From: a virus
Virus record (IMG/VR): IMGVR_UViG_3300029309_000014
Span: 5,323 to 69,322 of that record
Length of the DNA stretch: 64,000 nucleotides
Reading direction: 5' to 3' (one strand)
Positions 137 through 62,408 of this stretch are shown piece after piece (the first letter of the stretch is position 1; every line of letters begins with the position of its first letter). A program made the position numbers and the translations under genes. The notes below the pieces were generated by a model. The model searched no databases and was not told where the DNA came from. It saw nothing but the letters and a program-made list of their open reading frames with translations.

Positions 137-402
137 TAGCTATACGGACCTTTGATAACTTTTGGGTTATTTCTGTTGACCATACCACCTTTTGACATTT
201 TCATTGGCTTTTTGACCATACCGCCTTTAGCCATTTTTTTCATGTCTTTTTTGACCATACCGCCTTTAGCCATCTTCATTTTTTTGACCATACCGCCTTT
301 AGCCATCTTGGTCTTTTTGACCATACCGCCTTTAGCCATTTTTCTTGGCTTTTTTACCATGCCGCCTTTTGCGTACATTTTCTTTTTCATCTTTTTCGCC
401 AT
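136..402 (-). CDS. Lys/Met-rich MAKGG-repeat basic protein (copy 1)
   Basis: Six (M/Y)(A/S)KGGMV units; start placed at ATG 402 (MAKKMKKK); counterpart at 59779..60075. Confidence 0.75.
   Translation of the reverse strand: MAKKMKKKMYAKGGMVKKPRKMAKGGMVKKTKMAKGGMVKKMKMAKGGMVKKDMKKMAKGGMVKKPMKMSKGGMVNRNNPKVIKGPYS
176..375. repeat. Coding tandem repeat (ttgaccataccgcctttagccat-like units)
   Basis: Imperfect ~33-39 bp units encoding the MAKGGMVKK repeat. Confidence 0.85.
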
Positions 403-1084
403 TTTCTTCATCCTCTTCTGCGTAAAGATTATCAAAGATCCGATTTACATCCATTGTATAGTCTAAATCAGATTTTGAATAGTGAATGTGTTGTGAAGGT
501 TTAAACTTAGGAGCACCCTCACCTGTTACATACCAAGCAGGATGTGTAACCCTCACACGATTATTAGGCAAAGCCACAATATTTCCTGTCCACTTACCAG
601 CATCTAATAACTCTAACACATGGCTTTGTTTGTGCTGAGCTGGATCATCTGCTACCTCACTATCTGTATAATCAACAGTGAAAAAATATTTAGCTGGATA
701 AAATTCACCTTCTATCTTAGCAAGCCACGGACAGGGTTGGGCTCTGTTTAAACTGTATACAGAGTGTGTGTGAGACATACAATCCCAAGGCTGTGCTTGG
801 TATACATCCATCGGTTCAGGCCAGCCCTCAAATGCTGTATCACCGACTAAAGCTGTTATTGGCATCCTTGCCCACATAGCACCACCATGAACGTTTTCTT
901 CACCAGTTATATCACTTTCACAACCTGTAAATAAAACTTGGAAACTCAAGCATCTATTTGGCATAGTCGTTACGGCTATTGCCATTGCATGAAGGAACTC
1001 TCCATGGAAGTCTTCGTGATTGCAAGTATACTCTCTCCTCACCCAACATTTGAAGTAAGGGACGTTACTTGTTAAAAAACTCAT
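332..1084 (-). CDS. Conserved phage protein of unknown function (copy 1; HGGAMWARMPI / WDCMSH / ALPNNRVR motifs)
   Basis: 250 aa ORF with a close homolog at 59097..59774. Confidence 0.8.
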   Translation of the reverse strand: MSFLTSNVPYFKCWVRREYTCNHEDFHGEFLHAMAIAVTTMPNRCLSFQVLFTGCESDITGEENVHGGAMWARMPITALVGDTAFEGWPEPMDVYQAQPWDCMSHTHSVYSLNRAQPCPWLAKIEGEFYPAKYFFTVDYTDSEVADDPAQHKQSHVLELLDAGKWTGNIVALPNNRVRVTHPAWYVTGEGAPKFKPSQHIHYSKSDLDYTMDVNRIFDNLYAEEDEENGEKDEKENVRKRRHGKKAKKNG

Positions 1085-2864: not shown

Positions 2865-3485
2865 TTAGTAAACTGAGTATTCTAGCTCCACAGTAAATCT
2901 GCCAGCGGTGACATCGGCATTTACAGTTGTTGTAGCTCTAGCATACAAATGTACGTTTGCGACAGCCGCAGTAATGTTTGGCACAAAAATATGATAATTA
3001 CCTGCGGTGTCGTTAAAGTTCACATCAATCTCAGTAATAGATTGAGTTGCGCTCAACTGCTCGTTAAAAGAGGTAACACCAGCACCAACAATTTCAGTGC
3101 CTGAAACAGCAGCATTAGTAGCTGTCCCACTTGTAGAACTCAAAGCAAGGTTTCCAGCAAGAGTTTGACCAGCAGCAGTTGTAATGCCAATTAATGCACG
3201 ATGAATAAATATTTTGCTCGGTGTAACCAGATCATCAGGGGCATCTACATTTAAAGTGCCAAGCTCTACAAGACAATCACCATCTGCATAAGCTGTTGAA
3301 GCAGCGTTTGTTGCTGCTAGAGTACCAGCAAAAGACTGTATCTTGCGTGTCCCCATTGAAACAATCTGGCCTGTGGCATTAACAGAAAAACCTGTTTGCG
3401 TAACCGCACCAGTTGTGCTGCTTTCATTGATTACATTGAAACCGCCCTTTGAACGGACTGGTCCCGAAAAAGTGGTAGTAGCCAT
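2865..3485 (-). CDS. Putative capsid decoration/spike protein (MATTTFSGPVRS N-terminus)
   Basis: Directly downstream of MCP; N-terminus shared with 61801..62349; T/A/G-rich. Confidence 0.6.
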   Translation of the reverse strand: MATTTFSGPVRSKGGFNVINESSTTGAVTQTGFSVNATGQIVSMGTRKIQSFAGTLAATNAASTAYADGDCLVELGTLNVDAPDDLVTPSKIFIHRALIGITTAAGQTLAGNLALSSTSGTATNAAVSGTEIVGAGVTSFNEQLSATQSITEIDVNFNDTAGNYHIFVPNITAAVANVHLYARATTTVNADVTAGRFTVELEYSVY

Positions 3486-3490
3486 GTCGA

Positions 3491-3535
3491 TCTCCTGTCT
3501 TGGCTAATGTCAGTCACACTATGTAACTGTCAGGA
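3491..3535 (-). promoter_or_regulatory. Conserved structured 5' leader sequestering the RBS (copy 1)
   Basis: Minus strand TCCTG-A-CAGTTACA-TAG-TGTGACTG-ACATTAGCCAAGA-CAGGAG; same architecture at 62355..62399 with compensatory changes. Confidence 0.6.
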
Positions 3536-3542
3536 TGGAAAA

Positions 3543-3582
3543 ACTATAAACAAAAAAAGGGCGGCTCGCAAGCCGCCCTTTT
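3543..3582 (-). terminator. Intrinsic terminator after MCP with overlapping sigma70-like promoter
   Basis: GGGCGGCT-TGCG-AGCCGCCC followed by T7; TTGCGA-N17-TATAGT. Confidence 0.75.
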
Positions 3583-3594
3583 GAATATTTTATG

Positions 3595-4503
3595 TTACGC
3601 TCCCGGAGAGGCGAAAACGCAACGTGGGTCAGATACTCCAAAGCTATAACGCTCACGAGCTTTGTACCGCACGTTACCTGTATCAAAATCGCCTTCCATA
3701 GCAGTTTGCATCGGTGTACGAACAAAATGCTTGAAGCCGTTTGGTGCATCCGTTTTAATGAAAAATGCGTCCGTATCGGTTAAAAAGTGGTTGACCACAT
3801 AACCTTCAGGTAGCATACCCATATTACGGAGGGCGTTGATATCGTTGTCTGCTGTTGCAGTACGCAGATTCGAAGCCATCAACCGCTCTGCCACAAATTG
3901 CAATGCTGGTGGAATAATCATCTTCATACCGCGAAGTGCAATCTTAAGACCGCGCTCATCGATAAAAGCTGAAATATCAATCAGTGATTGCTCAAGTGAC
4001 GTTTCATTCAAGTCAGCCGCAGTTGTCAACTCATTACGGAAGTTGCCACCAGCAGTGGTTGGATGATCTGTTGCACACAATTCTTTACCATCACCAAGTG
4101 TAAAGCTAGAATCAAAAGCATTGTTCAGCACTGCTGCTGCTTTGACTTGCTTTGTATTAGCCATGGAACGAGCCAATGCACGAGTATAACGAGAGCTGAG
4201 CTTGTCGTAAAGGTTATCCTCAACGGCTTCTTCAGTGATCGAAAACGCAAGTGCGATTGTTTCATGTGTGTAACGAGCGGTAAATGCTTCATTAGCAATA
4301 TCAAATGATACCGCAGCACCTTCTTGTTTAATGGGTGCTGAGCCAAAGCCAGCGAGCATTACCTCTTCTTCGAACGCACGATCAGAGTTTTCTGAATCAA
4401 AAATTTCAGCATGCTCATTTTCGTAACGATCATACTCCATACCAAACAGAGCGTTTAGTCCAGGCTCTAGTTCTTTAAGGAGTTGGGATCTTGCAATAGC
4501 CAT
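3595..4503 (-). CDS. Major capsid protein (copy 1)
   Basis: MAIARSQLLKELEPGLNALFG..EGDFDTGNVRYKARERYSFG pattern typical of this marine phage MCP family; position after scaffold genes and before a strong terminator. Confidence 0.9.
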   Translation of the reverse strand: MAIARSQLLKELEPGLNALFGMEYDRYENEHAEIFDSENSDRAFEEEVMLAGFGSAPIKQEGAAVSFDIANEAFTARYTHETIALAFSITEEAVEDNLYDKLSSRYTRALARSMANTKQVKAAAVLNNAFDSSFTLGDGKELCATDHPTTAGGNFRNELTTAADLNETSLEQSLIDISAFIDERGLKIALRGMKMIIPPALQFVAERLMASNLRTATADNDINALRNMGMLPEGYVVNHFLTDTDAFFIKTDAPNGFKHFVRTPMQTAMEGDFDTGNVRYKARERYSFGVSDPRCVFASPGA

Positions 4504-9318: not shown

Positions 9319-10488
9319 CTAATCTAAAATATCTGTTAATGAAGCGATGCCACTTTTCCCAGCTTTTAAAGCTGCTTCATATGCTTCTTGTAAATTTGTC
9401 GTATCAAACCCAGATGAGCCCCTGTTCCGAGAAGTACCCACAGGGTTGCTAGTATAGGTTCTACCTTTTCGTGCTAATGTCGGTGAAAGCTGTTGCATTT
9501 TATCCCGCATAGCACCGAAATTAAAAAAAGCTAATTGATCAGCAGTAGAAGGACCACCTAAAGCACGGAAAGATGTATCTATGTTTTCTGGTGTAATACG
9601 AGAATCAGGTTCTCTATCTGGAAACCCTACATTTACATCACCAAAAGGTGTAGGCACATCTACAGTACGCGGCAAACCAAAATAATCTAAAGCATCATTT
9701 ACTGACGGTCCTGGAGGAGGAGCTATGTTTAATTCGGGTATAGTGACAGTGAGATCATCTAAATTAAATGCTGTTTGTTGTGTTCCTGGAGGCATACCAG
9801 AAGTGGTGGGGGCAGTATAATTATCCTGCATAAACTGTCCTGCTTTAGTTTGGGCTCTGCCAAGAGGAGCATCATCAGGGCGACCTGTATATTCACCAAT
9901 AATACTATCTTTACCCACTACTGTACTACCAGAAGCTATCCCTTGATTTTTTGTTGCAGGATTTGTTGTAGAACCTAGCCCCATCCTGCCAGCAATAGTA
10001 TTTGCTAATCCAACAATACCTTTCACAGTATCAGTTCCAGGAACAACTGCCGATAATATACCTAATGGTGTATTTCGTCCAGGAACAACCATATTCTCTA
10101 TATTTTGACCAAAACTTTTTTTAGTATCGTAGCCAAACATTCCAGGAATATCTGTTGGCTCTCTATACCCTAATTGATCAGCTACATAATTTTGTGTAGA
10201 AGTAGCATATGGATTCATACCTTGAGACAATGCATCTAAAGCCGCATTATACGCATCCGCTCCTGGACCAGACATTCTACCAGTAGCTTCATACCCAACA
10301 TTGCCACCACTTTCACTAAAAGGGCTGTCTTGTCTACCAATGCCAGAGCCACCGCCATCGCCACCACCACCACTAAAAGTATCGGCCGTTAAACTACTCT
10401 GTCCTTCACCCATACCTCCGCCAAAAGAGCCACCGCCATAGCCGACGTTGCCTCCACTTTCACTATCGGGACCATCTTGTCTACCCAT
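9319..10488 (-). CDS. Gly-rich low-complexity protein, possibly an internal virion protein
   Basis: Duplicated GRQD..SESGGNVGY motif; C-terminal GIASL; directly downstream of portal. Confidence 0.6.
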   Translation of the reverse strand: MGRQDGPDSESGGNVGYGGGSFGGGMGEGQSSLTADTFSGGGGDGGGSGIGRQDSPFSESGGNVGYEATGRMSGPGADAYNAALDALSQGMNPYATSTQNYVADQLGYREPTDIPGMFGYDTKKSFGQNIENMVVPGRNTPLGILSAVVPGTDTVKGIVGLANTIAGRMGLGSTTNPATKNQGIASGSTVVGKDSIIGEYTGRPDDAPLGRAQTKAGQFMQDNYTAPTTSGMPPGTQQTAFNLDDLTVTIPELNIAPPPGPSVNDALDYFGLPRTVDVPTPFGDVNVGFPDREPDSRITPENIDTSFRALGGPSTADQLAFFNFGAMRDKMQQLSPTLARKGRTYTSNPVGTSRNRGSSGFDTTNLQEAYEAALKAGKSGIASLTDILD

Positions 10489-12985: not shown

Positions 12986-14458
12986 CTAACCGTAATAGGA
13001 ATTTGTTCTTGGCGGTGCATCGACATAATCGTTATAATCCTCTGGGTGTTGTATAAACCCACCTTCGCGGAAACGTCGGAGAGCCTGTGTTACTGTATCA
13101 ACAAAATCATCATTTTCGCCAACAGGAAATGAAGCACACTCTTCTATCACTTCCTCTGCCCATCTAGTATCCGGAGCCCATACTAACCCACTTTCTAGGA
13201 TTGGCGCAATGGAGTTTACACGAGTATATTTATCATTACCTCTACTCGGGGAATAATTCTGCACTGGAATACCCATACTACGCAATTCTTGCGTTAATGG
13301 CATACCACTGGCTTTTGCCTCAATAATCACACATTCTGGTTCCCAATAATCATATTCTTCTTTTGCAATACGTTTTAATTCAGGAAAATCCCATCGGCCA
13401 CGTCGCGCATCTACCAAAACAATATTAGGTGCTTCACCCTCAACTGGGTAAAATACACCCCATGTTGTTATTGCACTATAATCAGCATTCTCTTTTTTAC
13501 TGTATGCTGTATCATAACTCTGCATCACATAACTTAATTTAGGAATATCTTCTTTTTCCCACTTATTCCACCACTCACGCTTTAATATAGCTGTTGTTTC
13601 ACTCGTCGGGTTTTGCTGCCATTGTGCTTCCCATTTACCAACTGATAATGAAGCCTTCACCTTTAATAATTCATCTTTTTTCCAAAACTCCGGCCATAAT
13701 ACCTTTTCATCATCTAATAATGCTGGAAACTCTATTACCTCCCACTGGTCTGCTAATACATCCCGCGCCTGTTGCTTTAATAATTTGCCAGTCAAATCTA
13801 TCTCTGACCAACGCGTCATCACAATTACAATCGCTCCTCCAGGCTGCAATCTTTGCCGTGGACCAGATGTATACCACTCATAGGCATTCTCTAATGCTGC
13901 TGGGGATAAAGCATCTTGTTCAGAGTGTGGGTCATCAATAATCATTAAATCCGCACCACGGCCTGTAATCGCACCCCCTACACCAGCCGCAAAATATTCA
14001 CCGCCAGCATGGGTCTCCCATCGGCCAGCCGCACTACTATCCTGTCGCAATTTAACATCTGGAAAGACTAGAGAGTAATCGTTACTATTCATAAGGTTAC
14101 GCACCTTTCGGCCAAACCTTACTGCTAACTCACCTGTATGCGTTGCCTGTATTATCTTTAATTTTGGATTTAATCCCATTAAATAACTCGGCAATAAATA
14201 ACTTGCATACTCTGACTTTGTATGTCTTGGCGGCATATTCACAATTAACCGCTTAATACTACCATCAGCTAAACCATTAAACTTCTGCGCCATTATCTTA
14301 TGGTGCTTCCCCTCAATAAACTCAGGCCATACTGTTTTGCAGTAGGCCATAAAATCCTTCCTCGCGTGATCACTCGAGATATGCTGTTTCTGCTTCTCAA
14401 GCAACCGCGCATACTGCTTTAATACTTCTTCGGGGATAGTTACCGGAACATCACTCAT
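12986..14458 (-). CDS. terL: Terminase large subunit
   Basis: NMPPRHTKS Walker A-like, GADLMIIDDP Walker B, VMTRW, SYDTA nuclease Asp, NDDFVD. Confidence 0.93.
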   Translation of the reverse strand: MSDVPVTIPEEVLKQYARLLEKQKQHISSDHARKDFMAYCKTVWPEFIEGKHHKIMAQKFNGLADGSIKRLIVNMPPRHTKSEYASYLLPSYLMGLNPKLKIIQATHTGELAVRFGRKVRNLMNSNDYSLVFPDVKLRQDSSAAGRWETHAGGEYFAAGVGGAITGRGADLMIIDDPHSEQDALSPAALENAYEWYTSGPRQRLQPGGAIVIVMTRWSEIDLTGKLLKQQARDVLADQWEVIEFPALLDDEKVLWPEFWKKDELLKVKASLSVGKWEAQWQQNPTSETTAILKREWWNKWEKEDIPKLSYVMQSYDTAYSKKENADYSAITTWGVFYPVEGEAPNIVLVDARRGRWDFPELKRIAKEEYDYWEPECVIIEAKASGMPLTQELRSMGIPVQNYSPSRGNDKYTRVNSIAPILESGLVWAPDTRWAEEVIEECASFPVGENDDFVDTVTQALRRFREGGFIQHPEDYNDYVDAPPRTNSYYG

Positions 14459-14652
14459 ATTATTCTAATAATATAAAAATTTTCTCGGCGCAATGATCTC
14501 GGATCAATGTTTCAAAAAAGGGGGTATGGGTACGCTGTATAATTTTCAGAGTGGTAACGATTTGGACAGAACCGTGTACTGCGCTGGTGCTTGTACACCA
14601 CTCGTCGCGCTAGGGGGGTTGCCCTGTGGCAAAAGTGCAACAGTGTTGCAAA

Positions 14653-14681
14653 CCAGCCGCCAAGTACCTTTTGGCGGCTGG
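14653..14681 (-). terminator. Hairpin terminator after the 176-aa gene
   Basis: CCAGCCGCCAA-N7-TTGGCGGCTGG perfect 11-bp stem, followed by TTT on the minus strand. Confidence 0.65.
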
Positions 14682-14691
14682 CTGCTAGGGG

Positions 14692-15222
14692 TTAGCTGCT
14701 AACCACCAGTTTGCACAGTGGGTTGCCCCAGCCTACGCTGCTAGGGCTGCTGCCGCCAGCCATAGCCTTTAACACTGGGTTTTGGTTAAGGCTGCTGGTA
14801 ACGCTGCTGCCGCTATTAGCAGCAATAGCATTTACCATTGCAAGCGGCACAGCGGCTGGCACTTTAGTAGGCACTGTGGTTTTTAACCAGCCAAAGCTAG
14901 TAATAAACTTAGGCTTTGGTGCGGTATAGCCTTGTGCGCTAGGCTGCCAATACTTAGCTGGCAAGCCACCATTAACCATAACCCAAAGCATTTGCCCAAA
15001 GTGGCCTATTGCCTTGCCGTTGGCTGGCTGCATAGCACGCCAAAAGTTAGCACCGCCCATAAGCGCGTTGGCTTGCACGGCGGCTGGTGTTAGCTGCACG
15101 TTAATATTGCCAATGCCATTAGCAGTAATAAACGCCTTAATAGCAAGGCTGCAATAAACGCCTTGGCTACCCAAATTTGCGGCCGTAAAGGCTGCCGCTG
15201 CCTGTGTTGTTGTGTTACCCAT
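14692..15222 (-). CDS. Asp/Glu-free 176-aa protein, paralog of 17593..18051
   Basis: Long ORF with upstream AAAAGGGG RBS-like element and a terminator; collinear similarity to the 152-aa protein. Confidence 0.8.
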   Translation of the reverse strand: MGNTTTQAAAAFTAANLGSQGVYCSLAIKAFITANGIGNINVQLTPAAVQANALMGGANFWRAMQPANGKAIGHFGQMLWVMVNGGLPAKYWQPSAQGYTAPKPKFITSFGWLKTTVPTKVPAAVPLAMVNAIAANSGSSVTSSLNQNPVLKAMAGGSSPSSVGWGNPLCKLVVSS

Positions 15223-15356
15223 TGGTAAACCCCTTTTGTAAAAAGCAAAGCACCATTGCCTTGCCCTATTGTTATGGCATAGGTGGTATATGTTTGTAAA
15301 CCCCTAAAAGCACATTAATGCAAATAAAGTTATTATTGCACCAAGTATTGCCGCCA

Positions 15357-15539
15357 CTAACATTTATGCCGCCATGCGCTAATGTAACCATGCGCGGCTA
15401 ACACCAGCCCCATAACAAACATAAACACGTTTATATAATGGTGCATTGGCGGCAAGTTAAACGTGCCTAAACTAGCAAACATTAATGTAACACCAGCCAC
15501 CATATTTAACGTGCAAAAAAACATATATACATAAACCAT
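15357..15539 (-). CDS. Asp/Glu-free 60-aa two-TM membrane protein
   Basis: ATG 15539 preceded by AAAAAGGGG; MVYVYMFFCTLNMVAGVTLMFASLG..VFMFVMGLVLAAHGYISAW. Confidence 0.6.
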   Translation of the reverse strand: MVYVYMFFCTLNMVAGVTLMFASLGTFNLPPMHHYINVFMFVMGLVLAAHGYISAWRHKC

Positions 15540-15699
15540 AATAAAACCCCTTTTTGTTTGTTGCGTTATGTAAATACTTAAAAGCAAAAACACGCTCAAG
15601 CAAGCGGCAATGTGCTCAAAAAATATCGCGGCCTGATCTCTAAAGAGACCGTATATGATAGATGCGATCACGTCCAGGATCGGATGGAAAGATAGATCA

Positions 15700-15722
15700 A
15701 TCCATCCATCCATCCATCCATC
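15700..15722. repeat. (ATCC)5 microsatellite within a GATC-rich patch
   Basis: atccatccatccatccatccatc; four GATC within 15635-15698. Confidence 0.85.
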
Positions 15723-15737
15723 GGCTACAAAAAGGTT

Positions 15738-15763
15738 GGTAGGGCAACCGAAGTCGCCCTACC
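15738..15763 (-). terminator. Intrinsic terminator
   Basis: GGTAGGGC..CGAA..GCCCTACC stem-loop followed by AACCTTTTT on the minus strand. Confidence 0.7.
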
Positions 15764-15770
15764 GTTGGGG

Positions 15771-16136
15771 TTAACTGATATCGTGCCAATGCCAACGGTA
15801 CTCGTTTTTTGGCTCGTCAAAAGTTGGCTCCTCAAGGTTGGGTTTAGCCTCAAGTTTTTGCCAGCGTGGTTGGCTACCGTCAATGTACTTAAACCAAACC
15901 TCATCTTTACCGTCGGCAGTAAAGACATCCTTACCATGGTAAAAGATCTCGCAGTCTTGGTTGCTCCAACTTGGGCAACCGTCGGCGTCAAAAAGGTCGT
16001 CGTCTTTTTCATAATTTATGTACACGTTTTGATAAAAACGCAAACCTTGTATAAGGCTTAGGATGTCAACGGCATTTACCCGTCGTACATGTATAGCTGT
16101 TGTAAAGCTATTATGGTGGTCAACTATATAAAGCAT
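15771..16136 (-). CDS. Hypothetical protein (TC-poor coding strand)
   Basis: 121 aa; GAGG RBS upstream and terminator downstream. Confidence 0.65.
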   Translation of the reverse strand: MLYIVDHHNSFTTAIHVRRVNAVDILSLIQGLRFYQNVYINYEKDDDLFDADGCPSWSNQDCEIFYHGKDVFTADGKDEVWFKYIDGSQPRWQKLEAKPNLEEPTFDEPKNEYRWHWHDIS

Positions 16137-16308
16137 TGTACTTACCTCGTTTTGTAGCTGTTACCAAAATTAGTAACAATTAAAAGGTAGCACACAGCAC
16201 ATCGCTGAGTGTCCTACTTGGTCGCTGTGACGTCTTAAGATGTCCAGCTCTGATGTCTTTTGAGGTCTGTTTTGTTTGAGTATATATGATGGTGTATATA
16301 CATATGAA

Positions 16309-16770
16309 TCATTCGTCATCTTTCATCGTCCATCTATCCATGTCCATCGGGTCGTCGCTCGTCATCAATCGTCCGAGGACTCTTGCCCATCCATCACGAT
16401 CCATCGGCCATTCCATTCGATCATCGTACACTGGCTCATCATCCATCAATCTCTTGCTCAGGTTACGACCATCCAAAAATAATAGCTGACTAGACGAAAG
16501 ATGATGGACCAAGTTCCAAACGCATCCACCAACAGAGGTTCTTGAGGTCTGCCATGCTATTTGATGAGGACGCCATTGTGGGAACTTCTTGTCAGACTTT
16601 GTCGTAAGAACCTTTAGCTCAACCCAAAAGTCCTTGCCATTCAAGCAACCGTTGACGTCAGGTACTCCTGGACTCGCCCACGACTCCATCCTAGTCCAAT
16701 GCACCCCGAGGGGCTTGGTTCCATCACGTAGGGCTTTCCAAAGTTTAGATTCAGGCTTCTTTGTCGCCAT
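16309..16770 (-). CDS. PD-(D/E)XK nuclease, Holliday-junction-resolvase/VRR-NUC-like
   Basis: ESKLW..TRMES..GVPDVNG..FWVELK..RPHQIAW motifs. Confidence 0.75.
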   Translation of the reverse strand: MATKKPESKLWKALRDGTKPLGVHWTRMESWASPGVPDVNGCLNGKDFWVELKVLTTKSDKKFPQWRPHQIAWQTSRTSVGGCVWNLVHHLSSSQLLFLDGRNLSKRLMDDEPVYDDRMEWPMDRDGWARVLGRLMTSDDPMDMDRWTMKDDE

Positions 16771-17305
16771 CAGGTAGAACCTCCAAGTTGTCCATTTCTA
16801 TGACAGGGCTGGTTGCTTCTACCAATGCTGGATACTCTTGCTGTATCCGCTTAATTTCAGTGAGCACTTCTTCTTTACTCATTTGGTCTATTTTACCATG
16901 CAGTATTTCTTTACGATCAATGTAAAGACCTGCCGCTGAACCTCTGGCTTTTTCAGCAGATACGGCGGCGGCATAGTTTCCATTTTGCAATGCTTGGTCA
17001 CGCAGTTGTGCGAGCTTTTGTACATGACTTTCAAAAGTAACCTCGTACTTATGCTGTAGCTCTTTCTTGATTTCATAAACCCTTTGCAAGACTTGTGGGT
17101 AGTTACGACCATTTAGCATATGACTCGCAATAGAGTGTGCGTTGGATTCAGCATACCCTGCCCTGAGTGCCGCTTCCGTTTGCGTAACCTCTTCTGTAGC
17201 ATAAATCATTGCAAATTTTTCCTGCATGGGTGTCAGCCCTTTTTCCACCCGAGGGTTTGCAACAATGTCCAAACTATTTTTGTGAGTGACTTTTGCTTTT
17301 GCCAT
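16751..17305 (-). CDS. terS: Terminase small subunit
   Basis: LTPMQEKFAMIY..TQTEAALRAGY HTH; AAVSAEKARG..GLYIDRKE. Confidence 0.85.
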   Translation of the reverse strand: MAKAKVTHKNSLDIVANPRVEKGLTPMQEKFAMIYATEEVTQTEAALRAGYAESNAHSIASHMLNGRNYPQVLQRVYEIKKELQHKYEVTFESHVQKLAQLRDQALQNGNYAAAVSAEKARGSAAGLYIDRKEILHGKIDQMSKEEVLTEIKRIQQEYPALVEATSPVIEMDNLEVLPDGDKEA

Positions 17306-17592
17306 GAGATCATACTACTTTTCTATAATAGGAACGTAAATAGAAATCGAGTCATTACAAAAAACCAACGGCTCAAACTCGCGTAGCTGTCTAAAGTTTA
17401 GACTACAATATATGAATTAGAGGTATAATCCTTTGATATGATTGTATAGCCATATATCGTATATTTGAATATCGGATAGAGTACAATACCCCATATTTCA
17501 TTTTTGATACTATATATAAAAGTAGCACAATATCAAAGAGAGCCATGATCCGTGGACCATGACCCTCTACTTGCCTTTCGTATAATTTGTGA

Positions 17593-18051
17593 TTACTTGG
17601 CTGGGATAACAAACAACTCAACGAAAGCATTACCCCAAGTCGCTTTTTTAGCTGGCGACTGCCCACCATTAAGCGCATCCAATAAAGCATGAAACTTGCG
17701 TGCTTTAATTGAGCGGTGGCAATTATCAACATCTTGTAAAGTAACAAGCTGATTACCAGAGTTGATCAACTGCCAGACCACTTTACCACGAAGTGTAGTT
17801 TTTGGCTGACCGTCAGTATCGTACAAAGTACGCTTGGCCTCGTACGGTAATGGCTGGTCGGTCTTTGGGTCAACCGTTGCCACTAGGCGAACACCGACAT
17901 TGTTTGGGTTGCCGCCAGCGTGCTCCTGAACAAATGAATCAATGTGGTCGGCAGTGATGCCAAACTTTTGTTGATCCTCAGGCAACTCATTGATGCCACG
18001 AAAAACGACTTCTGCCACTTGGGACTTTTTAGCTACAGCTGATTTAGCCAT
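17593..18051 (-). CDS. Hypothetical protein, ordinary-composition paralog of 14692..15222
   Basis: ATG 18051 after TAGAAAGGAG; C-terminal ALNGGQSP..WGNAFVELFV. Confidence 0.75.
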   Translation of the reverse strand: MAKSAVAKKSQVAEVVFRGINELPEDQQKFGITADHIDSFVQEHAGGNPNNVGVRLVATVDPKTDQPLPYEAKRTLYDTDGQPKTTLRGKVVWQLINSGNQLVTLQDVDNCHRSIKARKFHALLDALNGGQSPAKKATWGNAFVELFVIPAK

Positions 18052-25467: not shown

Positions 25468-25858
25468 TACCTCGCATTCGCACTTCTGCTTCTACAAGAA
25501 ATAAATACCGACGTAAGTCACGGATATCATCAAGGATACCTTCCTCACGCATATCATCAAAGGCAGCTTTAAATACATCATAATTATATTCTGTAACTTG
25601 TTTTTCAAGCCTATCCCATTTACGAGCCAGCATCATAAAAGCACCAACACCGCCACGCTGCTTCCAGCTATCACCGTAAGACTGCTCTGAATTATGTAAC
25701 CCTTCTACATCTTGATTAGCTAACCCAACGATATTATTAACAATAGGGCTATAATCATCAGGGGTAATATCACCGTTTTTTGCCATATTTGTATACTCCT
25801 CCCAATCTAATTCCTGCATACGCCTTTTCATGTATTGTTCGTGGCTTTCTCTTGCCAT
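25445..25858 (-). CDS. Nucleotide-modification-associated all-alpha protein (Nmad1/DUF1599, MazG-like)
   Basis: SYGDSWKQRG..RKWDRL..ILDDIRDLRRY. Confidence 0.65.
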   Translation of the reverse strand: MARESHEQYMKRRMQELDWEEYTNMAKNGDITPDDYSPIVNNIVGLANQDVEGLHNSEQSYGDSWKQRGGVGAFMMLARKWDRLEKQVTEYNYDVFKAAFDDMREEGILDDIRDLRRYLFLVEAEVRMRGNGKRKAG

Positions 25859-26856
25859 TTATCTCTCCTACGTTCTAACCATTCCCAAGTAGCTAAATGC
25901 CAATCATCGGGTTTTATATCTGCACAATGGTCAAAAGCTAAAGCTAATTCTTTAGCTTTCCATGCTTGCCATACTCGGTGCATAGGTTGTGCCAAATCGG
26001 AGAAACAGGAATTTATATATGGTCTTGGCCTTTCAGTATCTTCCATAAACCATTCTAACTCTTCATCAAATGATTCTATATTATTTACAAGAGCATCTGG
26101 CCTAATCATACGCACATTGTATGATTCATAATCAGGGTTCATACCCTCTAGCTTTTTTAATACTTCAGTATAAGCATGAAGGTTATTACTAAACTGTGTA
26201 TAGATACCAACACTCGCGCCAATGCGAGAGGCTATATACTCTTGAAGAATGGACATATGGACAGCATTAGCTCCCAATGCACCCCAGATCATATCATTAC
26301 TACGGTTACATACTGTCATATCCAATATATTATCACGCACATTAAAATAGATATGAGTATTACAGGGATGGTCTTTACAGCTATTACTCATCCGTAAATC
26401 ACCCTCAGCATCCCACATTGCTAGAACTGCTCGTCTATCATTTGTATGTGTCATCAACCTGTGGATGATTACATCAATCTGATCACGATGAAAGTAATTA
26501 CGCCAACGGTATCCGTATGCTCCCTGTAATATTTTACCATCATCACTATACTCACCCATCCGTGCATTATAGCGTTGTATCCACTCTAAATCATTACGCC
26601 CTGCTAACATCCACAGGCTTTCCATAAAGTGAAATATTGGGTTTGCATCACGTTCGGGGTAAAACAGTACACGCTCGCGTGGGTTATTGTAGACAATAGC
26701 ACATGGTTCACGGAACTCAATTGCTTTACCATTACGAGTTTCTACTTCTACACCATTAGCTTCTAATGCTTGCTTCACAACAAACAATGCTTCGCTTACA
26801 TTTCCTACGGTGAAAGTATGCACCCCTCGCATGGGTGCTTTGCCATATAATGCCAT
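25828..26856 (-). CDS. Thymidylate-synthase-fold enzyme, probable dUMP hydroxymethylase
   Basis: Catalytic PC (KDHPCNTH); RSNDMIWGALGAN with Asn at the dUMP-specificity position; NLHAY; context of hypermodification genes. Confidence 0.8.
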   Translation of the reverse strand: MALYGKAPMRGVHTFTVGNVSEALFVVKQALEANGVEVETRNGKAIEFREPCAIVYNNPRERVLFYPERDANPIFHFMESLWMLAGRNDLEWIQRYNARMGEYSDDGKILQGAYGYRWRNYFHRDQIDVIIHRLMTHTNDRRAVLAMWDAEGDLRMSNSCKDHPCNTHIYFNVRDNILDMTVCNRSNDMIWGALGANAVHMSILQEYIASRIGASVGIYTQFSNNLHAYTEVLKKLEGMNPDYESYNVRMIRPDALVNNIESFDEELEWFMEDTERPRPYINSCFSDLAQPMHRVWQAWKAKELALAFDHCADIKPDDWHLATWEWLERRRDKWQEKATNNT

Positions 26857-26939
26857 ATTTAACCGCCTTTCTATGGGGTTTTAAAGCTGCTACAGCAGCC
26901 TGATTTAATTTGCCCTACCCTATTACTAAAAGCAACCCT

Positions 26940-27959
26940 CTAGCTTTCTGAGTAGCCTGTAATAAAGTCAAAATGTTTCTTAACTCTCTTAGTATAAGTG
27001 CCTCCTCTTAACGCCTCCTTGATTGCAAGCGTTGTTTCCTCAGTAGGCTCGGGTAATGCCTTGCGTCCCATGCGGTCAGGTAACAATCCATTACGCAGAG
27101 TGGTATTGTCACAACCGTTACAAGGACCGAAATCACGTTGCCCATGATACAATTTTGTTCTCGCTGCATGAAATGCTTCCCCCTGCCATACTTCTTCCAT
27201 TGGTACATCAACTACATTGCCACATTTGTACCATCCAGGCCAATCGTTACAGCAAACAGCGACATTACCATCCCAACGTATAGACATTTCACGGAAAGGT
27301 TTAGCGCAGCGTTTACCATCTTGTTCATGGTTTAGATGGAAAGCGTTACCAGCGTGGTTACTGACTTGGGCATGGGTTCCGCTTGTAGCGAGCGTAAGAT
27401 CCATTCCAACAACGATAATATGTTCTGTAACTTTTCGTCGTTGGTGAGGGTTTGCGTTGCGCTCTGCAGGGTATTCGTATACAGGGTATGGACCATTATA
27501 TCTCTCCTTTATTTTATCTACTATTTTGATACGATCATAATTATCAAGAAACAAAACATTAAGTCCTGCTTCCATCAGTTGGTTGACACTTTTTTGAGTG
27601 TCGCGTAAAAGACCACCGCCATTGCTTGTCATCATAAGAGAAGTTTTTGGCAACTCCTGACGGAATAGTCTAATCATGTCTATGAAGAAAGGGTGCATAG
27701 TCGGCTCACCGTGCATGGCAAACTCTAGCCGTGGGTTCCATCCTGCTTCTTTTATACGGTCACAGATAGACCTTGCTCTTTCTATTGTTAAATATCTGTA
27801 AGGGGCAGATGCTTTACCATGTATATTTTCTGGACCATCTGCTTCATTTTCACGTATAGATTGTATGCCGCAAAAAGAACAAGCAAGGTTACACCCCTCT
27901 GTTAATTCAATCTGAATAGAGTTGGGTGGGTCTTGGTGATAGTTAGATTGCACCGCCAT
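26940..27959 (-). CDS. Radical SAM enzyme with SPASM/twitch-like C-terminal domain
   Basis: CNLACSFC, HGEP, MTSNG; C..PF..IRWDGNVAVCC..CNGC. Confidence 0.88.
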   Translation of the reverse strand: MAVQSNYHQDPPNSIQIELTEGCNLACSFCGIQSIRENEADGPENIHGKASAPYRYLTIERARSICDRIKEAGWNPRLEFAMHGEPTMHPFFIDMIRLFRQELPKTSLMMTSNGGGLLRDTQKSVNQLMEAGLNVLFLDNYDRIKIVDKIKERYNGPYPVYEYPAERNANPHQRRKVTEHIIVVGMDLTLATSGTHAQVSNHAGNAFHLNHEQDGKRCAKPFREMSIRWDGNVAVCCNDWPGWYKCGNVVDVPMEEVWQGEAFHAARTKLYHGQRDFGPCNGCDNTTLRNGLLPDRMGRKALPEPTEETTLAIKEALRGGTYTKRVKKHFDFITGYSES

Positions 27960-28728
27960 CTTTAGCTGCCTTTCTCCATTGAACACGAACATCCCAACGT
28001 GTTTTCATACCCTCCCATCCTGTTTTAGTTTCTTTCTGCACTGCTTTTACATACAGTGGAAACTCTTCAGCTAATGCCCTACTTGCCTTTTCTTGTAACT
28101 CTGCATTACGGTATGAACTACAACCACCAGCCGCACCAGAAGCACCACGTTGATCCCATGTCCAATCTACAATTACAGCATTACGATGCCCTGATTGAAA
28201 CAGTTTAAGGGTAACATAATAATCCTCCATTAAGTCCATAGTATCGTATCTTATGCCTAGCCCATGAATAATTTCAGGACGTATAGCATGAACAGCATTT
28301 TGTCGCATACCGTACTTAATTGTATCAGGAAAATGTTTATCGTTCATTTGTCGTGGGCTAAGACCAACATGGGTATGGTTCATTAACAACCACTCCATAC
28401 GCTCCCATAATTCGTGCATTTCTTCTTGGTTTGTTTTTCTTAGATTTGGAATATCCCCAGATATACGCCTCCCAAATATAAGATCATCATCCAAAACAAT
28501 AATTTTATCATGCCCTGCCTCCATAGCGTGTTCTAATATGAACTGCCGTACATTATTGATTCCTTTAATTTCACCGCGATTTATACAATCACGCCCCTGT
28601 TTGGTATGCCAATTTATTTCTTCTTGTGGGCAAACAAGAGCAGCATACTCTCGGGCTTCCGGACCAATACTATCCCAAGTAATTTGGTTATTCATCCTAC
28701 CCCTTGTTGGTATATATATTGGTATCAT
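27943..28728 (-). CDS. GT-A glycosyltransferase, TET/JBP-associated (TAGT/GREB1/base-J-glucosyltransferase-like)
   Basis: IYIPTRGR..GINNVRQFI..IVLDDD..MEDY..GGCSSYR. Confidence 0.75.
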   Translation of the reverse strand: MIPIYIPTRGRMNNQITWDSIGPEAREYAALVCPQEEINWHTKQGRDCINRGEIKGINNVRQFILEHAMEAGHDKIIVLDDDLIFGRRISGDIPNLRKTNQEEMHELWERMEWLLMNHTHVGLSPRQMNDKHFPDTIKYGMRQNAVHAIRPEIIHGLGIRYDTMDLMEDYYVTLKLFQSGHRNAVIVDWTWDQRGASGAAGGCSSYRNAELQEKASRALAEEFPLYVKAVQKETKTGWEGMKTRWDVRVQWRKAAKDGGAI

Positions 28729-29033
28729 ATCTCATCCTCATCAAATCTTACTTGGCCTGTCATAATAGCTTCTTCTAGCTCTTCATCTGTAAGGGTGCGT
28801 ACATCTTCTAACTGATTCCATACTTTAGGGTTTTTCACTTTTGGTTTTAATTTTCTTTTCTTTGGTTTTACCAATTTCAGTTTGGGTGGCTCTTTGCTCT
28901 TGGGTGGCTCTAATACTTCCAATGTCCGATAGCTGTACTTGCATTTCTGACAAATCCTCTTCCTCCGTATCGTGCTTTCGTAGGATCGACTGTCTACGAC
29001 GGAAGATCTGCCATTGCATTTTGGACACAACAT
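28725..29033 (-). CDS. NrdR-like zinc-ribbon protein lacking the ATP cone
   Basis: MLCPKC..SSVVDSR..IRRKRICQKC..YRTLE matches the NrdR N-terminal pattern. Confidence 0.7.
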   Translation of the reverse strand: MLCPKCNGRSSVVDSRSYESTIRRKRICQKCKYSYRTLEVLEPPKSKEPPKLKLVKPKKRKLKPKVKNPKVWNQLEDVRTLTDEELEEAIMTGQVRFDEDEI

Positions 29034-29035
29034 AT

Positions 29036-29932
29036 TTACGCCACCTCCCCATTAACAGCCTCCAGCATTGAACCTTGTAATCCATTATACTTACTACGAG
29101 GAGTGCCTTGACCAAGACGTACACGCTCATACTTATCCCACTCGCAAAGGCTGTGTTCAATACAACGCATATCCACAGCCAGAGTCGGGATGTGATTGCC
29201 AAGATAACGGTGCGAATCTTCGAGTAAATCGTGCATCTCCCTATTGCTTTGATAAGCACCTAACGCTTTTGTAAGAGGTCTATCATGGATTCTATTGAGG
29301 CCTCGTTTTGCTCCTGGACCTGCATTTGCCCAACTAAAACGGTCTTTTGCCTTGTCCAATACAGGTGTGTAGTTGAGGTCGGTAACCACCTCGTATGACA
29401 TAAAACCTCCTCCTCCCCACCCTTTATACTTAGCCATCGCTTCATGTACCGCTTGGAGCGACTGCGTTTCGGTGGCAATCTGCGCCAACGCTTCTTTGTT
29501 CTCCCATATTGGCGAAAGGAAATAGTCAACTACTACCTCTGATTTTGGTAACTTGAGTCCTTGGTTAGTGATTATATAAGCACCAGTAAATGTCCGTAAA
29601 CCCTGCTCAAGCCGAGCCTTTATCAAGTCTTTAGTAAAAGTAGGGTTAAAATCGTGCGACCAACCATGTGCATCAGCAAACTCACTAGTCCCAACCATAC
29701 GAAACATACAGCAATTAAATATAATTTCACCATGTGGACGGTTACTATTTGGCTTAGTAAAATTCTGTCTCATCCACACAGTAACCCTATCATTCTCACG
29801 GAAAGGATTAGTAAACTTATAATCGCGTAATATAGGGTCATCAGTCCAAGGGGCTGGTTGCCCCTTGGCTCGTTTTTGGTAAATAGCGTGACGCTCGTTT
29901 ATCCAGTAGCAGAACCTTTCTATGTTCTCCAT
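29036..29932 (-). CDS. aGPT-Pplase clade 1 thymidine-hypermodification protein (HhH-glycosylase-like fold)
   Basis: ERHAIY..PWTDDPILRDYKFTNPFRENDR..FTGAY..GFMSYEVVTDL..GPGAKRGL..EHSLCEWDKY. Confidence 0.82.
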   Translation of the reverse strand: MENIERFCYWINERHAIYQKRAKGQPAPWTDDPILRDYKFTNPFRENDRVTVWMRQNFTKPNSNRPHGEIIFNCCMFRMVGTSEFADAHGWSHDFNPTFTKDLIKARLEQGLRTFTGAYIITNQGLKLPKSEVVVDYFLSPIWENKEALAQIATETQSLQAVHEAMAKYKGWGGGGFMSYEVVTDLNYTPVLDKAKDRFSWANAGPGAKRGLNRIHDRPLTKALGAYQSNREMHDLLEDSHRYLGNHIPTLAVDMRCIEHSLCEWDKYERVRLGQGTPRSKYNGLQGSMLEAVNGEVA

Positions 29933-61800: not shown

Positions 61801-62349
61801 CTAGGCCACCTGAACGTATTCAATGATGAACGTGAAAGACCCGGCTGTCGTAGCATCTACAGTGTTTGTAATGTTACAGAAAATTGTTCTTTCAGCCGAA
61901 GTGTATTGAGGAGAAACTGGCGCAGTAGTTGCATTTTGTGTTGTCGCAACTAATGTGGTAGTTGTCACGTTACCAACAACAACAGTTGTTCCACCATCAA
62001 GGATCTCATCCGTTATAGCTGCAACAATCTGTGCTCCAGAACTAGAAGTGCCGACCTCATATCCAATATCACCTGTTCCAATAACTGGGGCGGTAACACA
62101 AAAGATTTTAATGTCAGTAATGATCGTGTTGGCGGGCTGTGTAAACTCACCGATAGCAGGACTATCCCCTGCTGTTGTGTTTACTGTTACACCTGTTGCA
62201 AAACCAACGTGTTTTACGAATTTGTTTGTGATAATGCCCGTAGAGGCGATAGAAGAGGTTTCTGTTACCGCACCTGTAGATGCGTTTTTATTTATAACCT
62301 TGAAACCATTTTCGGAGCGTACTGCTCCGCTAAAAGTAGTGGTAGCCAT
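61801..62349 (-). CDS. Putative capsid decoration protein (copy 2)
   Basis: MATTTFSGAVRS N-terminus; divergent body. Confidence 0.6.
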   Translation of the reverse strand: MATTTFSGAVRSENGFKVINKNASTGAVTETSSIASTGIITNKFVKHVGFATGVTVNTTAGDSPAIGEFTQPANTIITDIKIFCVTAPVIGTGDIGYEVGTSSSGAQIVAAITDEILDGGTTVVVGNVTTTTLVATTQNATTAPVSPQYTSAERTIFCNITNTVDATTAGSFTFIIEYVQVA

Positions 62350-62354
62350 TTGAG

Positions 62355-62399: not shown

Positions 62400-62408
62400 A
62401 GTGAAAAA

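What the first reader, a model, noticed from the sequence alone, without database searches (positions are those of the whole stretch)
14607..15596. A ~1-kb GA/TC-free island between TerL and TerS
Seen: by manual scan there is no GA and no TC (the same dinucleotide on opposite strands) in ~990 bp, where about 100+ would be expected and flanking DNA has them normally. AG, CT and TT remain common, so this is not low complexity. The left edge is sharp (TC at 14602 and 14605, then none); the right side fades in. The constraint covers two ORFs, intergenic DNA and a terminator, so selection acts on the DNA rather than the protein. Known: hmU hypermodifications are installed post-replicatively with sequence-context preference, and phage termini often lie near terminase genes. 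Inference: the island is kept free of a TC/GA-targeted event. Candidates: (a) the phage's own T hypermodification at 5'-TC, leaving an unmodified window for host RNA polymerase, terminase cutting or first-step DNA entry; (b) host defences whose targets contain GA/TC (GATC, GANTC and many other RM sites, DarT-type TNTC ADP-ribosylation, TC-preferring deaminases). I know no description of this in this phage group.
Basis: partly seen in the sequence, partly recalled or inferred. Interest (0 to 1): 0.95.

Follow-up and report, generated by a model that had tools for sequence, protein, structure and literature searches.

The report
Phage gene written without GA/TC
An uncultured marine phage that chemically decorates its thymines keeps one small gene, with its control signals, free of the two-letter DNA step GA/TC, which removes every aspartate and glutamate from its protein, and a normal twin of that gene lies 2.4 kb away.

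Summary
Window 14606-15595 has no GA and no TC; the next-longest such gap in 64 kb is 74 bp.

It is inherited, not an accident. Of 64 related marine phage contigs with enough flank, 51 have a GA/TC-free run of 500 bp or more at the same place. There is exactly one per complete genome.

The island is one small expression unit: a candidate promoter, a 176-aa gene and a strong hairpin.
- The gene is under purifying selection (dN/dS 0.05-0.35) and its synonymous sites turn over heavily, yet no change creates GA/TC.
- The protein family has essentially no Asp or Glu.
- It is a paralog of an ordinary gene at 17593-18051 (hhalign 96.8%).

The clade carries a thymidine-hypermodification cluster. Four relatives without it lack both the island and the gene pair. 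Papers report TG/TC-specific hypermodification, and report that bulky groups or phosphorylated hmU block bacterial RNA polymerase.

Best reading (about 0.5): the unit is kept free of the phage's own TC-targeted mark, so that a backup copy of the gene stays transcribable.

Against this reading, 7 cultured hypermodifying phages have no island, and some clade members have lost it.

Earlier AI notes of this scan report the same phenomenon on other DNA. My literature searches found no description of it.

The parts
14606..15595 (.). GA/TC-free island (no GA and no TC on either strand)
   Evidence: gap of 991 between GA/TC occurrences at 14605 and 15596; the next-longest gap in the window is 74.
14692..15222 (-). 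Island gene p176: a 176-aa protein with no Asp or Glu and no Pfam, PHROG or NCBIfam hit. It is the core of the island in all relatives.
   Evidence: Family alignment A2. dN/dS 0.05-0.35. AF2 pLDDT 73.7. Only weak winged-helix-like matches, Z 3.8 or less.
15357..15554 (-). Small hydrophobic ORF (65 aa). It is inside the island in this window and in L004-L006. Its homologs in other relatives contain GA/TC.
14651..14683 (-). 13-bp-stem hairpin right after the p176 stop, followed by UUUG and further stems. It is a terminator candidate, and the island ends about 45 nt beyond it.
   Evidence: MFE -46 kcal/mol, z -2.7. The consensus scan did not list it because the T-run criterion was not met.
15271..15300 (-). 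Promoter candidate for p176, read by eye: TTTACA, an 18-nt spacer that ends in TGn, then CATAAC. This is a GA-free form of a sigma-70 extended -10 promoter.
   Evidence: sequence. The consensus scan found no minus-strand promoter here, so this is inference.
17593..18051 (-). Ordinary paralog p160 (152 aa from its second Met, 10.6% Asp+Glu, normal GA/TC density), just upstream of TerS
   Evidence: hhalign A2 vs A3: probability 96.8%, E 2.8e-10, 117 columns. The plain HMM of A2 also hits the ordinary copies in relatives. Density.
25828..29932 (-). Thymidine-hypermodification cluster: a thymidylate-synthase-fold enzyme, a radical SAM/SPASM enzyme, a TAGT-type glycosyltransferase, an NrdR-like Zn ribbon, and a PF18723 (HMUDK_hel) protein that similar phage records annotate as aGPT-Pplase1
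   Evidence: PMC9599517 passages.
15634..15763 (-). Upstream border: an intrinsic-terminator-like hairpin of the preceding operon (15738-15763), then a GA/TC-dense tract with (GATG)5 and four GATC
   Evidence: Equivalent dense bins occur in relatives.
12986..14458 (-). Large terminase subunit, 148 bp downstream of the island
16751..17305 (-). Small terminase subunit

Best explanation
What is shown: one small stand-alone expression unit is under continuing purifying selection against the DNA step GA/TC on both strands. The unit is a candidate promoter and leader, a 141-255-aa gene and a hairpin terminator. The selection costs its protein all Asp and Glu. The gene is a diverged duplicate of an ordinary gene that lies just upstream of TerS.

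What is inferred, step 1 (about 0.55): the agent that reads GA/TC is the phage's own post-replicative thymidine hypermodification, acting on T in 5'-TC. The island is therefore the only stretch of the genome that stays plain, hmU-type DNA.

What is inferred, step 2 (about 0.35): the purpose is transcription. Bulky or phosphorylated hmU derivatives hinder bacterial RNA polymerase. A TC-free unit stays readable by the unaided host enzyme whatever the modification state of the genome. That includes the fully modified DNA that has just entered a cell. The phage would then keep a modification-proof starter or backup copy of a protein whose better, acid-containing copy sits in modifiable DNA.
For: - Reality and depth: 51 of 64 related loci with 1000 bp or more of upstream flank have a GA/TC-free run of 500 bp or more at the homologous place. 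There is one island per genome in G000 and G006-G010, and no other dinucleotide behaves this way.
- Ongoing selection on DNA: pairs of island genes differ at 29-60% of synonymous sites, with dN/dS 0.05-0.35, yet have zero GA/TC. The run extends a median of 147 nt upstream of the start codon and 85 nt past the stop (start codons approximate).
- Relaxed alleles regain GA/TC before Asp/Glu.
- Paralogy with an ordinary gene.
- Only recognisable DNA-modification machinery: the TS-fold enzyme, PF18723/aGPT-Pplase1, TAGT and rSAM. There is no TGT/DpdA and no PF01555 methyltransferase, with positive controls.
- Co-occurrence: PF18723 is in G000 and in 8 of 10 further long clade contigs searched; the two misses are 61% and 29% complete. 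It is in 0 of 4 outgroup phages (HTVC023P, HTVC027P, DSL-LC04, 023Pt_psg01), which also lack the island and both paralogs.
- Island-bearing genomes differ in tailoring enzymes but share the TS and Pplase1 genes. This fits a context set by an early common step.
- Literature, passages read: resistant sites in M6, ViI and phiW-14 carry TG or TC, and the authors suggest the 5-hmdU DNA kinase shares this preference (PMC6449724). dapT sits at TG, and less at TC (PMC13458397). Bulky major-groove groups block E. coli and B. subtilis RNA polymerase at promoters, hmU enhances transcription, and 5HMUDK phosphorylation switches it off (introduction of PMC11550810).
Against: - No chemical or sequencing-signal evidence exists that T in TC is modified in this phage. 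The context is inferred from the island itself.
- Seven cultured phages with a homolog of the Pplase1-like gene have no dinucleotide-free island (M6, Sonora, SH-Ab 15599, SFP10, CN1, SP10, Vibrio K444). They include M6 and SH-Ab 15599, for which the papers read report TG/TC contexts, and SFP10, a member of the same family (Ackermannviridae) as ViI. Modification as such does not demand an island.
- Inside the clade the island is partly or wholly lost in 13 of 64 loci. The losses are scattered on the TerL tree (at least 9 changes; L053 and L054 have identical TerL). PF18723 is still present in G001, G002 and G004, and I found no gene whose presence tracks the island.
- No P-loop 5-hmdU kinase was recognised.
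- All other genes, early ones included, contain GA/TC at normal density. Transcription of modified DNA must therefore be possible somehow.
- If only promoter access mattered, purging the whole coding region would be unnecessary.
- The co-occurrence with the cluster is a single phylogenetic event.
Confidence: 0.5

Rival explanations
1. Nuclease avoidance. The unit is purged of GA/TC because a DNA endonuclease or other DNA-targeting enzyme acts at sites that contain this step. The enzyme could be a host defence or the phage's own host-shutoff enzyme. The rest of the genome is protected in some other way, for instance by the modification itself.
For: The purge is symmetric on both strands, as expected for a reader of double-stranded DNA. 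The island's alleles are far more divergent than their neighbours: p176 is about 35-43% identical where TerL and TerS are 94-99%. That would fit an arms race. Loss of the island is scattered across the tree, as if it depended on a variable external factor such as the host.
Against: No known restriction or defence nuclease reads a bare dinucleotide. Removing every GA/TC to dodge many different sites in one 0.7-1 kb gene only, while about 60 kb keeps normal density, has no rationale unless the rest is modified. That brings back the modification model. The 4 relatives without the modification cluster have no island.
Confidence: 0.15
2. RNA-level constraint. The transcript must contain neither GA nor UC, so that it survives an endoribonuclease (a phage host-shutoff enzyme or a host abortive-infection toxin). 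This would be a natural analogue of ACA-less messages that escape MazF (recalled, not read here).
For: The island coincides with an expression unit. It extends a fairly uniform 60-98 nt past the stop, through the hairpin, and about 130-150 nt upstream of the start in many loci. A twin gene, one copy resistant and one not, fits a 'message that must survive' logic.
Against: GA and UC are reverse complements. One reader of duplex DNA explains both, whereas an RNase would need two unrelated specificities. The run usually extends 100-300 nt upstream of the start codon, probably beyond the transcription start. An RNase cutting at every GA and UC would destroy nearly all cellular and phage RNA. The transcription start is not mapped, so this rival is not excluded.
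Confidence: 0.12
3. The island is an unmodified window needed for a DNA transaction other than transcription: packaging initiation next to the terminase genes, a genome end, or a replication or recombination site.
For: It lies between TerS and TerL. Assemblies tend to break at its borders; for example a 1158-nt contig of run X7 covers exactly 14572-15681. Several IMG/VR contigs begin inside it.
Against: The purged stretch is a gene with its signals, not a conserved site. Its sequence is the most variable of the region, which is unlike a pac or cos site. TerL sits about 16-19 kb from the same contig end in five long contigs (contig ranges), so the island is probably internal. Contig breaks are also expected at any hypervariable segment. 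No raw reads were on offer to map ends; all runs were contigs.
Confidence: 0.08
4. The island is a mutational footprint: repeated TC-to-TT (and GA-to-AA) editing by a TC-specific DNA cytosine deaminase erased the step.
For: AA and TT are somewhat above expectation in the island (105 vs 74 and 83 vs 64). Asn and Lys are frequent in the protein family.
Against: GC, not AA/TT, is the most enriched step (116 vs 55). The gene is under purifying selection with dN/dS 0.05-0.35. Total absence is kept across alleles only 15-45% identical in protein. The borders coincide with a gene unit. Editing cannot explain why only this unit is hit in every genome.
Confidence: 0.03

Closest known systems
Dinucleotide-context thymidine hypermodification from 5-hmdU (Pseudomonas phage M6, Salmonella phage ViI, Delftia phage phiW-14, Acinetobacter phage SH-Ab 15599)
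   Same: The window has the same kind of gene set (TS-fold enzyme plus aGPT-Pplase1-type PF18723 protein next to PolA). Published restriction analyses place those modifications at TG and/or TC (PMC6449724; PMC13458397). A TC-specific version would explain why exactly GA/TC is avoided.
   Different: No dinucleotide-free island exists in M6, SH-Ab 15599 or the Ackermannviridae phage SFP10, nor in 4 other Pplase1-homolog carriers. No P-loop kinase was recognised here. The tailoring enzymes differ: TAGT plus rSAM, or an unknown 435-aa protein in G010. The modified base and its context are unmeasured in this clade.
HTVC023P-type pelagiphage clades V, VIII and IX with TS plus aG/PT-PPlase1 'partner AMGs' (PMC9599517)
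   Same: The nearest named DNA matches of the TerL region are HTVC023P-type phages. [quoted passage not shown]
   Different: The passages I read do not mention any GA/TC-free or hypervariable region or an acid-free gene. The word 'hypervariable' occurs 0 times in the main text. I could not see the supplements, so I cannot say which clade this record belongs to.
Restriction-site and motif avoidance in phage genomes (recalled general knowledge; no paper read)
   Same: In both cases selection removes a short DNA word because something reads it.
   Different: Classical avoidance concerns 4-8-bp sites, is genome-wide and statistical, and rarely costs amino acids. Here a 2-bp step is absent absolutely, from one gene unit only, at the cost of two amino acids.
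MazF and ACA-less messages (recalled; no paper read)
   Same: A single gene is kept free of a short word so that its expression survives a global shut-off. A resistant version of a product exists beside sensitive ones.
   Different: That constraint is on one RNA strand and a 3-nt word. Here both strands and flanking DNA are purged.
Base J (glucosyl-hmU) in kinetoplastids (base J is named in passages of PMC11550810; its role in transcription termination is recalled)
   Same: It is a glycosylated hmU made by a TAGT/JGT-type glycosyltransferase, and it interferes with RNA polymerase. A TAGT-family gene is in the window's cluster.
   Different: It is eukaryotic and made by thymine oxidation rather than from hmdUTP. 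No evidence here shows that the phage base is glycosylated.

Membership tests
5-hmdU-derived thymidine hypermodification system (M6/ViI/phiW-14 type) | Thymidylate-synthase-fold dUMP hydroxymethylase | tested here: inconclusive
   Window 25828-26856 hits Pfam Thymidylat_synt at E 2.8e-20, over the cut-off. It scores far below every NCBIfam thymidylate-synthase equivalog cut-off. Hydroxymethylase versus methylase specificity was not tested.
5-hmdU-derived thymidine hypermodification system (M6/ViI/phiW-14 type) | aGPT-Pplase-type transferase (PF18723 / phrog_2396) | tested here: met
   Window 29036-29932: PF18723 at E 1.6e-50 over 4-276 of 281 positions. tblastn homologs in Sonora and PAC5 are annotated aGPT-Pplase1.
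5-hmdU-derived thymidine hypermodification system (M6/ViI/phiW-14 type) | P-loop 5-hmdU DNA kinase | tested here: inconclusive
   No kinase family was hit by the neighbouring 205-aa protein in Pfam, PHROGs or NCBIfam. It shows no BLASTP likeness to Sonora's annotated nucleotide kinase. Not every ORF of the window was scanned singly.
5-hmdU-derived thymidine hypermodification system (M6/ViI/phiW-14 type) | Hypermodified thymidine present in virion DNA, in a TG/TC context | not testable with these tools
   Only contigs of public runs were available. There are no signal-level data and no chemistry.
Restriction-site avoidance | The avoided word is a 4-8-bp recognition site, depleted genome-wide | tested here: not met
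   The avoided word is the dinucleotide GA/TC. It is absent from one 0.99-kb unit and at normal density in all other ORFs.
RNase-motif-free message (MazF/ACA-less type) | The motif is absent from the transcribed strand only and within the transcript only | tested here: inconclusive
   Both GA and TC are absent on both strands. The run extends a median of 147 nt upstream of the start codon. The transcription start is unknown.
Winged-helix DNA-binding proteins (for p176 and p160) | Winged-helix fold with a significant structural match | tested here: inconclusive
   AF2 models have pLDDT 73.7 and 78.2. Foldseek against PDB found nothing at E 0.001 or better for the p176 model. VIA-align gave a best Z of 3.8 (6dgd_A PriA domain, rmsd 3.0, 68 aligned) for p176 and 5.0 (3i3l_A, rmsd 3.8, 92 aligned) for p160. 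Winged-helix domains recur in both lists. All are below the tool's stated noise level of about Z 7-8.
pac/cos packaging site or genome terminus | Physical DNA ends or terminase cuts map to the site | not testable with these tools
   No raw reads were available. Read laying reported no places where many molecules begin or end, but contigs cannot show this.

The most novel reading that the evidence does not exclude
These phages run a modification-gated start-up circuit. The incoming, fully TC-hypermodified genome is largely unreadable to host RNA polymerase, except for the one GA/TC-free unit. Its acid-free winged-helix-like product recognises hypermodified 'GAGTA' boxes, whose bottom strand TACTC carries a TC thymine. 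These boxes sit upstream of the early promoters, of the ordinary twin gene and of the modification cluster, and the product switches them on. Freshly replicated, not-yet-modified DNA then loses this activation, which gives a built-in early-to-late switch. DNA hypermodification would thus act as a phage-encoded epigenetic timer, not only as a shield, with dinucleotide-free islands as its visible footprint. By this scan's earlier notes, the same footprint occurs in several unrelated phage lineages, including CA/TG-free versions.
Probability: 0.12. Interest if true: 0.95.

Novelty: categorically new. Interest (0 to 1): 0.88.

Why it matters
If the reading holds, raw sequence alone reveals two things. 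It shows which dinucleotide a phage's DNA-modification machinery targets, and it shows that the phage must keep part of its genome unmarked.

That would make modification context predictable for uncultured viruses. [quoted passage not shown]

It would also show that hypermodification has a cost for gene expression large enough to drive recoding of a gene at the price of two amino acids.

It would supply a natural example of a functional protein family made without any acidic residue.

Finally, it gives a simple experimental handle. Restoring TC steps by synonymous changes, or moving a reporter into an island, tests whether DNA hypermodification regulates transcription in phages.

Tried and rejected
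Gene-content correlate of island loss. I clustered all ORFs of 10 long contigs and searched TAGT and PF18723 in them. No gene tracked the island. The island-less contigs are only 61-86% complete, so this is weak evidence either way.

Function of p176 and p160. Pfam, PHROGs and NCBIfam gave nothing. The ESM Atlas gave no usable hit for p160. Foldseek against PDB gave nothing for the p176 model. VIA-align gave only Z of 5 or less.

Wider distribution of the acid-free family.
- A profile search of 1.84 billion representatives gave 110 hits. Of these, 45 have no Asp/Glu, 26 have 2% or less, and 23 have 6% or more.

Expression.
- Two metatranscriptome runs were laid on the region.
- Contigs of a 90-95% relative in X20 cover 14773-15332 and parts of TerL. 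X19 covers only 15729-16151.
- Contigs in an RNA library do not prove transcription and cannot rank genes, so I draw no conclusion from them.
- The parts without cover say nothing.

Other checks.
- Terminus mapping was not possible because all runs are kept as contigs.
- The consensus promoter scan called no minus-strand promoter in the island. The promoters I name are read by eye.
- A 7-deazaguanine (DpdA at GA; recalled from the CAjan literature, not read here) or adenine-methylation alternative was considered. No TGT-family and no PF01555 gene is present in the whole 69-kb record, with positive controls.
- The first-stage note that the neighbouring 121-aa gene avoids coding-strand TC is only mildly borne out: 13.7 per kb against a typical 25-50, which is 5 occurrences in 366 nt.

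Literature.
- Searches, and passages of PMC9599517, PMC6449724, PMC13458397, PMC8989533 and PMC11550810, gave no description of a dinucleotide-free island or an acid-free twin gene.
- Subscription journals and supplementary files were not searched. I did not try to open supplements. Supplementary Tables 1-3 of PMC6449724 and the clade tables of PMC9599517 could bear on context and clade assignment.
Full report
**1. The observation**

- On the + strand, TC occurs at 14602 and 14605, and the next GA or TC starts at 15596.
- That gap of 991 compares with a next-longest GA/TC-free gap of 74 in the whole 64-kb window.
- GA/TC occurs 6450 times in the window. A gap of 990 has a probability of about 10^-46 under a simple geometric model (my arithmetic).
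- None of the other nine dinucleotide pairs shows anything similar. The other steps have ordinary counts inside the island, and GC is about twice its expectation.

**2. Anatomy**

Nearly all genes of the window lie on the minus strand. Read in that direction the order is as follows.
- TerS (17305 to 16751), then two small genes.
- A terminator-like hairpin at 15763-15738 and a GA/TC-dense tract with (GATG)5 and four GATC.
- The island, then 148 bp of normal DNA.
- TerL (14458 to 12986) and the portal gene.

The island holds these elements.
- A 65-aa hydrophobic ORF (15554 to 15357).
- A candidate promoter read by eye: TTTACA, an 18-nt spacer ending in TGn, then CATAAC. The consensus scan did not call it.
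- A GA-free ribosome-site-like AAAGGGG.
- A 176-aa ORF (15222 to 14692).
- A 13-bp-stem hairpin.

The 176-aa protein has no Asp and no Glu, and no family hit in Pfam, PHROGs or NCBIfam.

**3. It is inherited and under selection**

A TerL-based search of viral contigs gave 80 loci with 71-99% TerL identity.
- Of the 64 loci that keep the TerL start and at least 1000 bp upstream, 51 have a GA/TC-free run of 500 bp or more at the homologous place. Six have 200-499 bp and seven have less than 200 bp.
- Six long records (G000, G006-G010) have exactly one island each and no comparable hole for any other dinucleotide.
- Every island contains one main ORF of 141-255 aa on the TerL strand. Of 55 such ORFs, 54 are linked by BLASTP into one family. 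They align with conserved blocks (A2).
- The 55 ORFs hold no Asp and only a trace of Glu (0.0%). By eye the one Glu I find is in the L078 ORF call, which begins upstream of the island.
- Twelve of the thirteen gene pairs compared differ at 29-68% of synonymous sites, with dN/dS 0.05-0.35. The thirteenth pair (L055 and L007) is nearly identical. None of these genes contains GA/TC apart from a single TC in L002. The ORF is therefore a real gene, and GA/TC is being removed continuously.
- The purged run reaches a median of 147 nt upstream of the start codon and 85 nt beyond the stop, with a tight 60-98 nt in most loci (starts approximate). It covers the gene's signals as well as the gene.

**4. 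Variability and loss**

The island gene is far more divergent than its neighbours, at about 35-43% identity where TerL and TerS are 94-99%.

Loci with identical TerL can differ completely. L054 has an island. In L053 the gene copy has 75 GA/TC per kb.

On the TerL tree the loss or decay needs at least 9 changes. Three decayed alleles (L001, L008, L012) share the same restored TC positions although their TerL genes sit in three subclades. The unit therefore moves by recombination.

Decay is graded, from 6 to 75 GA/TC per kb. GA/TC comes back before acidic residues do: L028 has 17 GA/TC and 0 Asp/Glu. This again points to a constraint on nucleotides.

**5. A twin gene**

I tested this.
- A2 against that protein gives hhalign probability 87%.
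- A2 against an alignment of 29 homologs (A3) gives 96.8%, E 2.8e-10, over 117 columns.
- A plain HMM of A2 finds the ordinary copy in relatives at E 1e-8 to 1e-27.

The ordinary copy has normal GA/TC density (85-116 per kb for those nearest the A3 profile; up to 128 per kb in distant lineages that the script labelled by bit score) and 9-22 acidic residues. It is present in all 10 long records and evolves more slowly.

Both AF2 models (pLDDT 73.7 and 78.2) retrieve the same weak list, dominated by winged-helix-like domains, at Z of 5 or less. That is below the tool's noise level. The function is therefore open, and a nucleic-acid-binding role is only a hint.

**6. What could read GA/TC**

The window carries a thymidine-hypermodification cluster:
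- a TS-fold enzyme;
- a radical SAM/SPASM enzyme;
- a TAGT-type glycosyltransferase;
- an NrdR-like Zn ribbon;
- a PF18723 protein, which similar phage records annotate as aGPT-Pplase1.

The same cluster is described for HTVC023P-type clades V, VIII and IX (PMC9599517, passages).

I found no TGT/DpdA and no PF01555 methyltransferase in the 69-kb record, with positive controls.

PF18723 is present in the window's own record and in 8 of the 10 other long clade contigs searched. The two misses are 61% and 29% complete. It is absent from HTVC023P, HTVC027P, DSL-LC04 and 023Pt_psg01, which also have no island and neither paralog.

Island-bearing genomes differ in tailoring enzymes. G010 lacks TAGT and rSAM and has an unknown 435-aa protein instead. 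They share the TS and the Pplase1-like gene.

**7. Literature (passages read)**
- In M6, ViI and phiW-14 the restriction-resistant sites carry TG or TC. The authors suggest that the 5-hmdU DNA kinase very likely shares this preference (PMC6449724).
- In SH-Ab 15599, dapT is at TG, less at TC, and rarely at TT or TA (PMC13458397).
- Bulky major-groove groups block E. coli and B. subtilis RNA polymerase at promoters. hmU enhances transcription, and phosphorylation by 5HMUDK switches it off (introduction of PMC11550810).

None of the searches or passages mentions a dinucleotide-free island or an acid-free twin.

**8. Reading**

The symmetric absence of a word and its reverse complement, in coding and non-coding DNA, is best explained by a reader of duplex DNA. 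The only such machinery visible is the phage's own thymidine hypermodification, for which a TC context has precedent.

I therefore think the unit is kept free of the phage's own mark (about 0.55). The most likely reason is to keep this one gene transcribable by unaided host polymerase whatever the modification state (about 0.35). The acid-free copy would serve as a starter or backup for the ordinary twin.

**9. Evidence against, told in full**
- The context is inferred, not measured.
- M6, Sonora, SH-Ab 15599, SFP10, CN1, SP10 and Vibrio phage K444 have no dinucleotide-free island.
- The clade itself contains genomes with the cluster but without the island.
- No correlate of loss was found.
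- No kinase was recognised.
- All other genes tolerate GA/TC.
- Promoter access alone would not require purging the coding region.
- An RNA-level constraint, a nuclease target and a packaging role remain possible. A deaminase footprint is unlikely.

**10. Relation to earlier notes of this scan**

Notes on other genomes report similar cases: GA/TC-free acid-free genes, a twin gene, GA/TC-free promoter islands, and one CA/TG-free island (e1-5850710, e1-5981776, e1-6078254, e1-6096534, e1-6218044). I did not verify them. They are leads, not support. If they are true, the phenomenon is recurrent and tracks the two published contexts, TC and TG.

**11. Verdict**

This is a real, strongly selected and, as far as my searches show, undescribed feature. 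Its existence and its DNA-level nature are well supported. Its cause is plausible but unproven.

Noticed in passing
window 397-1054 vs 59092-59744; 3394-4503 vs 62258-63387: The two ends of the record carry diverged copies (77% and 71% identity) of the same structural genes. The 69-kb 'linear, 100% complete' record is probably a wrap-around join of two related strains, and the true genome is about 58.7 kb.
   Followed up: partly
window 15634-15722: A GA/TC-dense tract ((GATG)5 plus four GATC) lies directly upstream of the island. Relatives have equally dense bins (18-23 GA/TC per 100 bp) at the same border. It could be a heavily marked boundary element, but its role is unexplained.
   Followed up: partly
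window 18145, 18694, 19158, 20076, 30623 (minus strand): Five intergenic GAGTA boxes sit about 35 nt upstream of -10-like hexamers. They head the ordinary twin gene, early genes and the modification cluster. The island has AAGTA at the matching place upstream of its first ORF. In all, 11 of 70 GAGTA occurrences are intergenic, against 5.8 expected.
   Followed up: partly
L109 (G010) 16683-17990 and 9459-10121: One island-bearing subclade replaces the Zn-ribbon, TAGT and radical-SAM genes with a 435-aa protein that has no Pfam hit. It also carries a 2OG-Fe(II) oxygenase, so the final modification chemistry differs within the clade.
   Followed up: partly
window 29936-30553: A 205-aa protein directly upstream of the Pplase1-like gene sits where M6-like phages have the 5-hmdU DNA kinase. 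It has no family hit and no likeness to Sonora's kinase. How hmU is activated here is open.
   Followed up: partly
window 14572-15681: In an independent marine DNA run (X7), a 1158-nt contig covers exactly the island plus 35-85 bp on either side with no differences. Neighbouring pieces break or differ there, which fits the island being a recombining cassette.
   Followed up: no
window 16309-16770: The 153-aa gene overlapping the TerS stop matches phrog_2165 ('DNA helicase', E 1e-23) and weakly an endonuclease PHROG. It has an unusually high GA density of 123 per kb.
   Followed up: no
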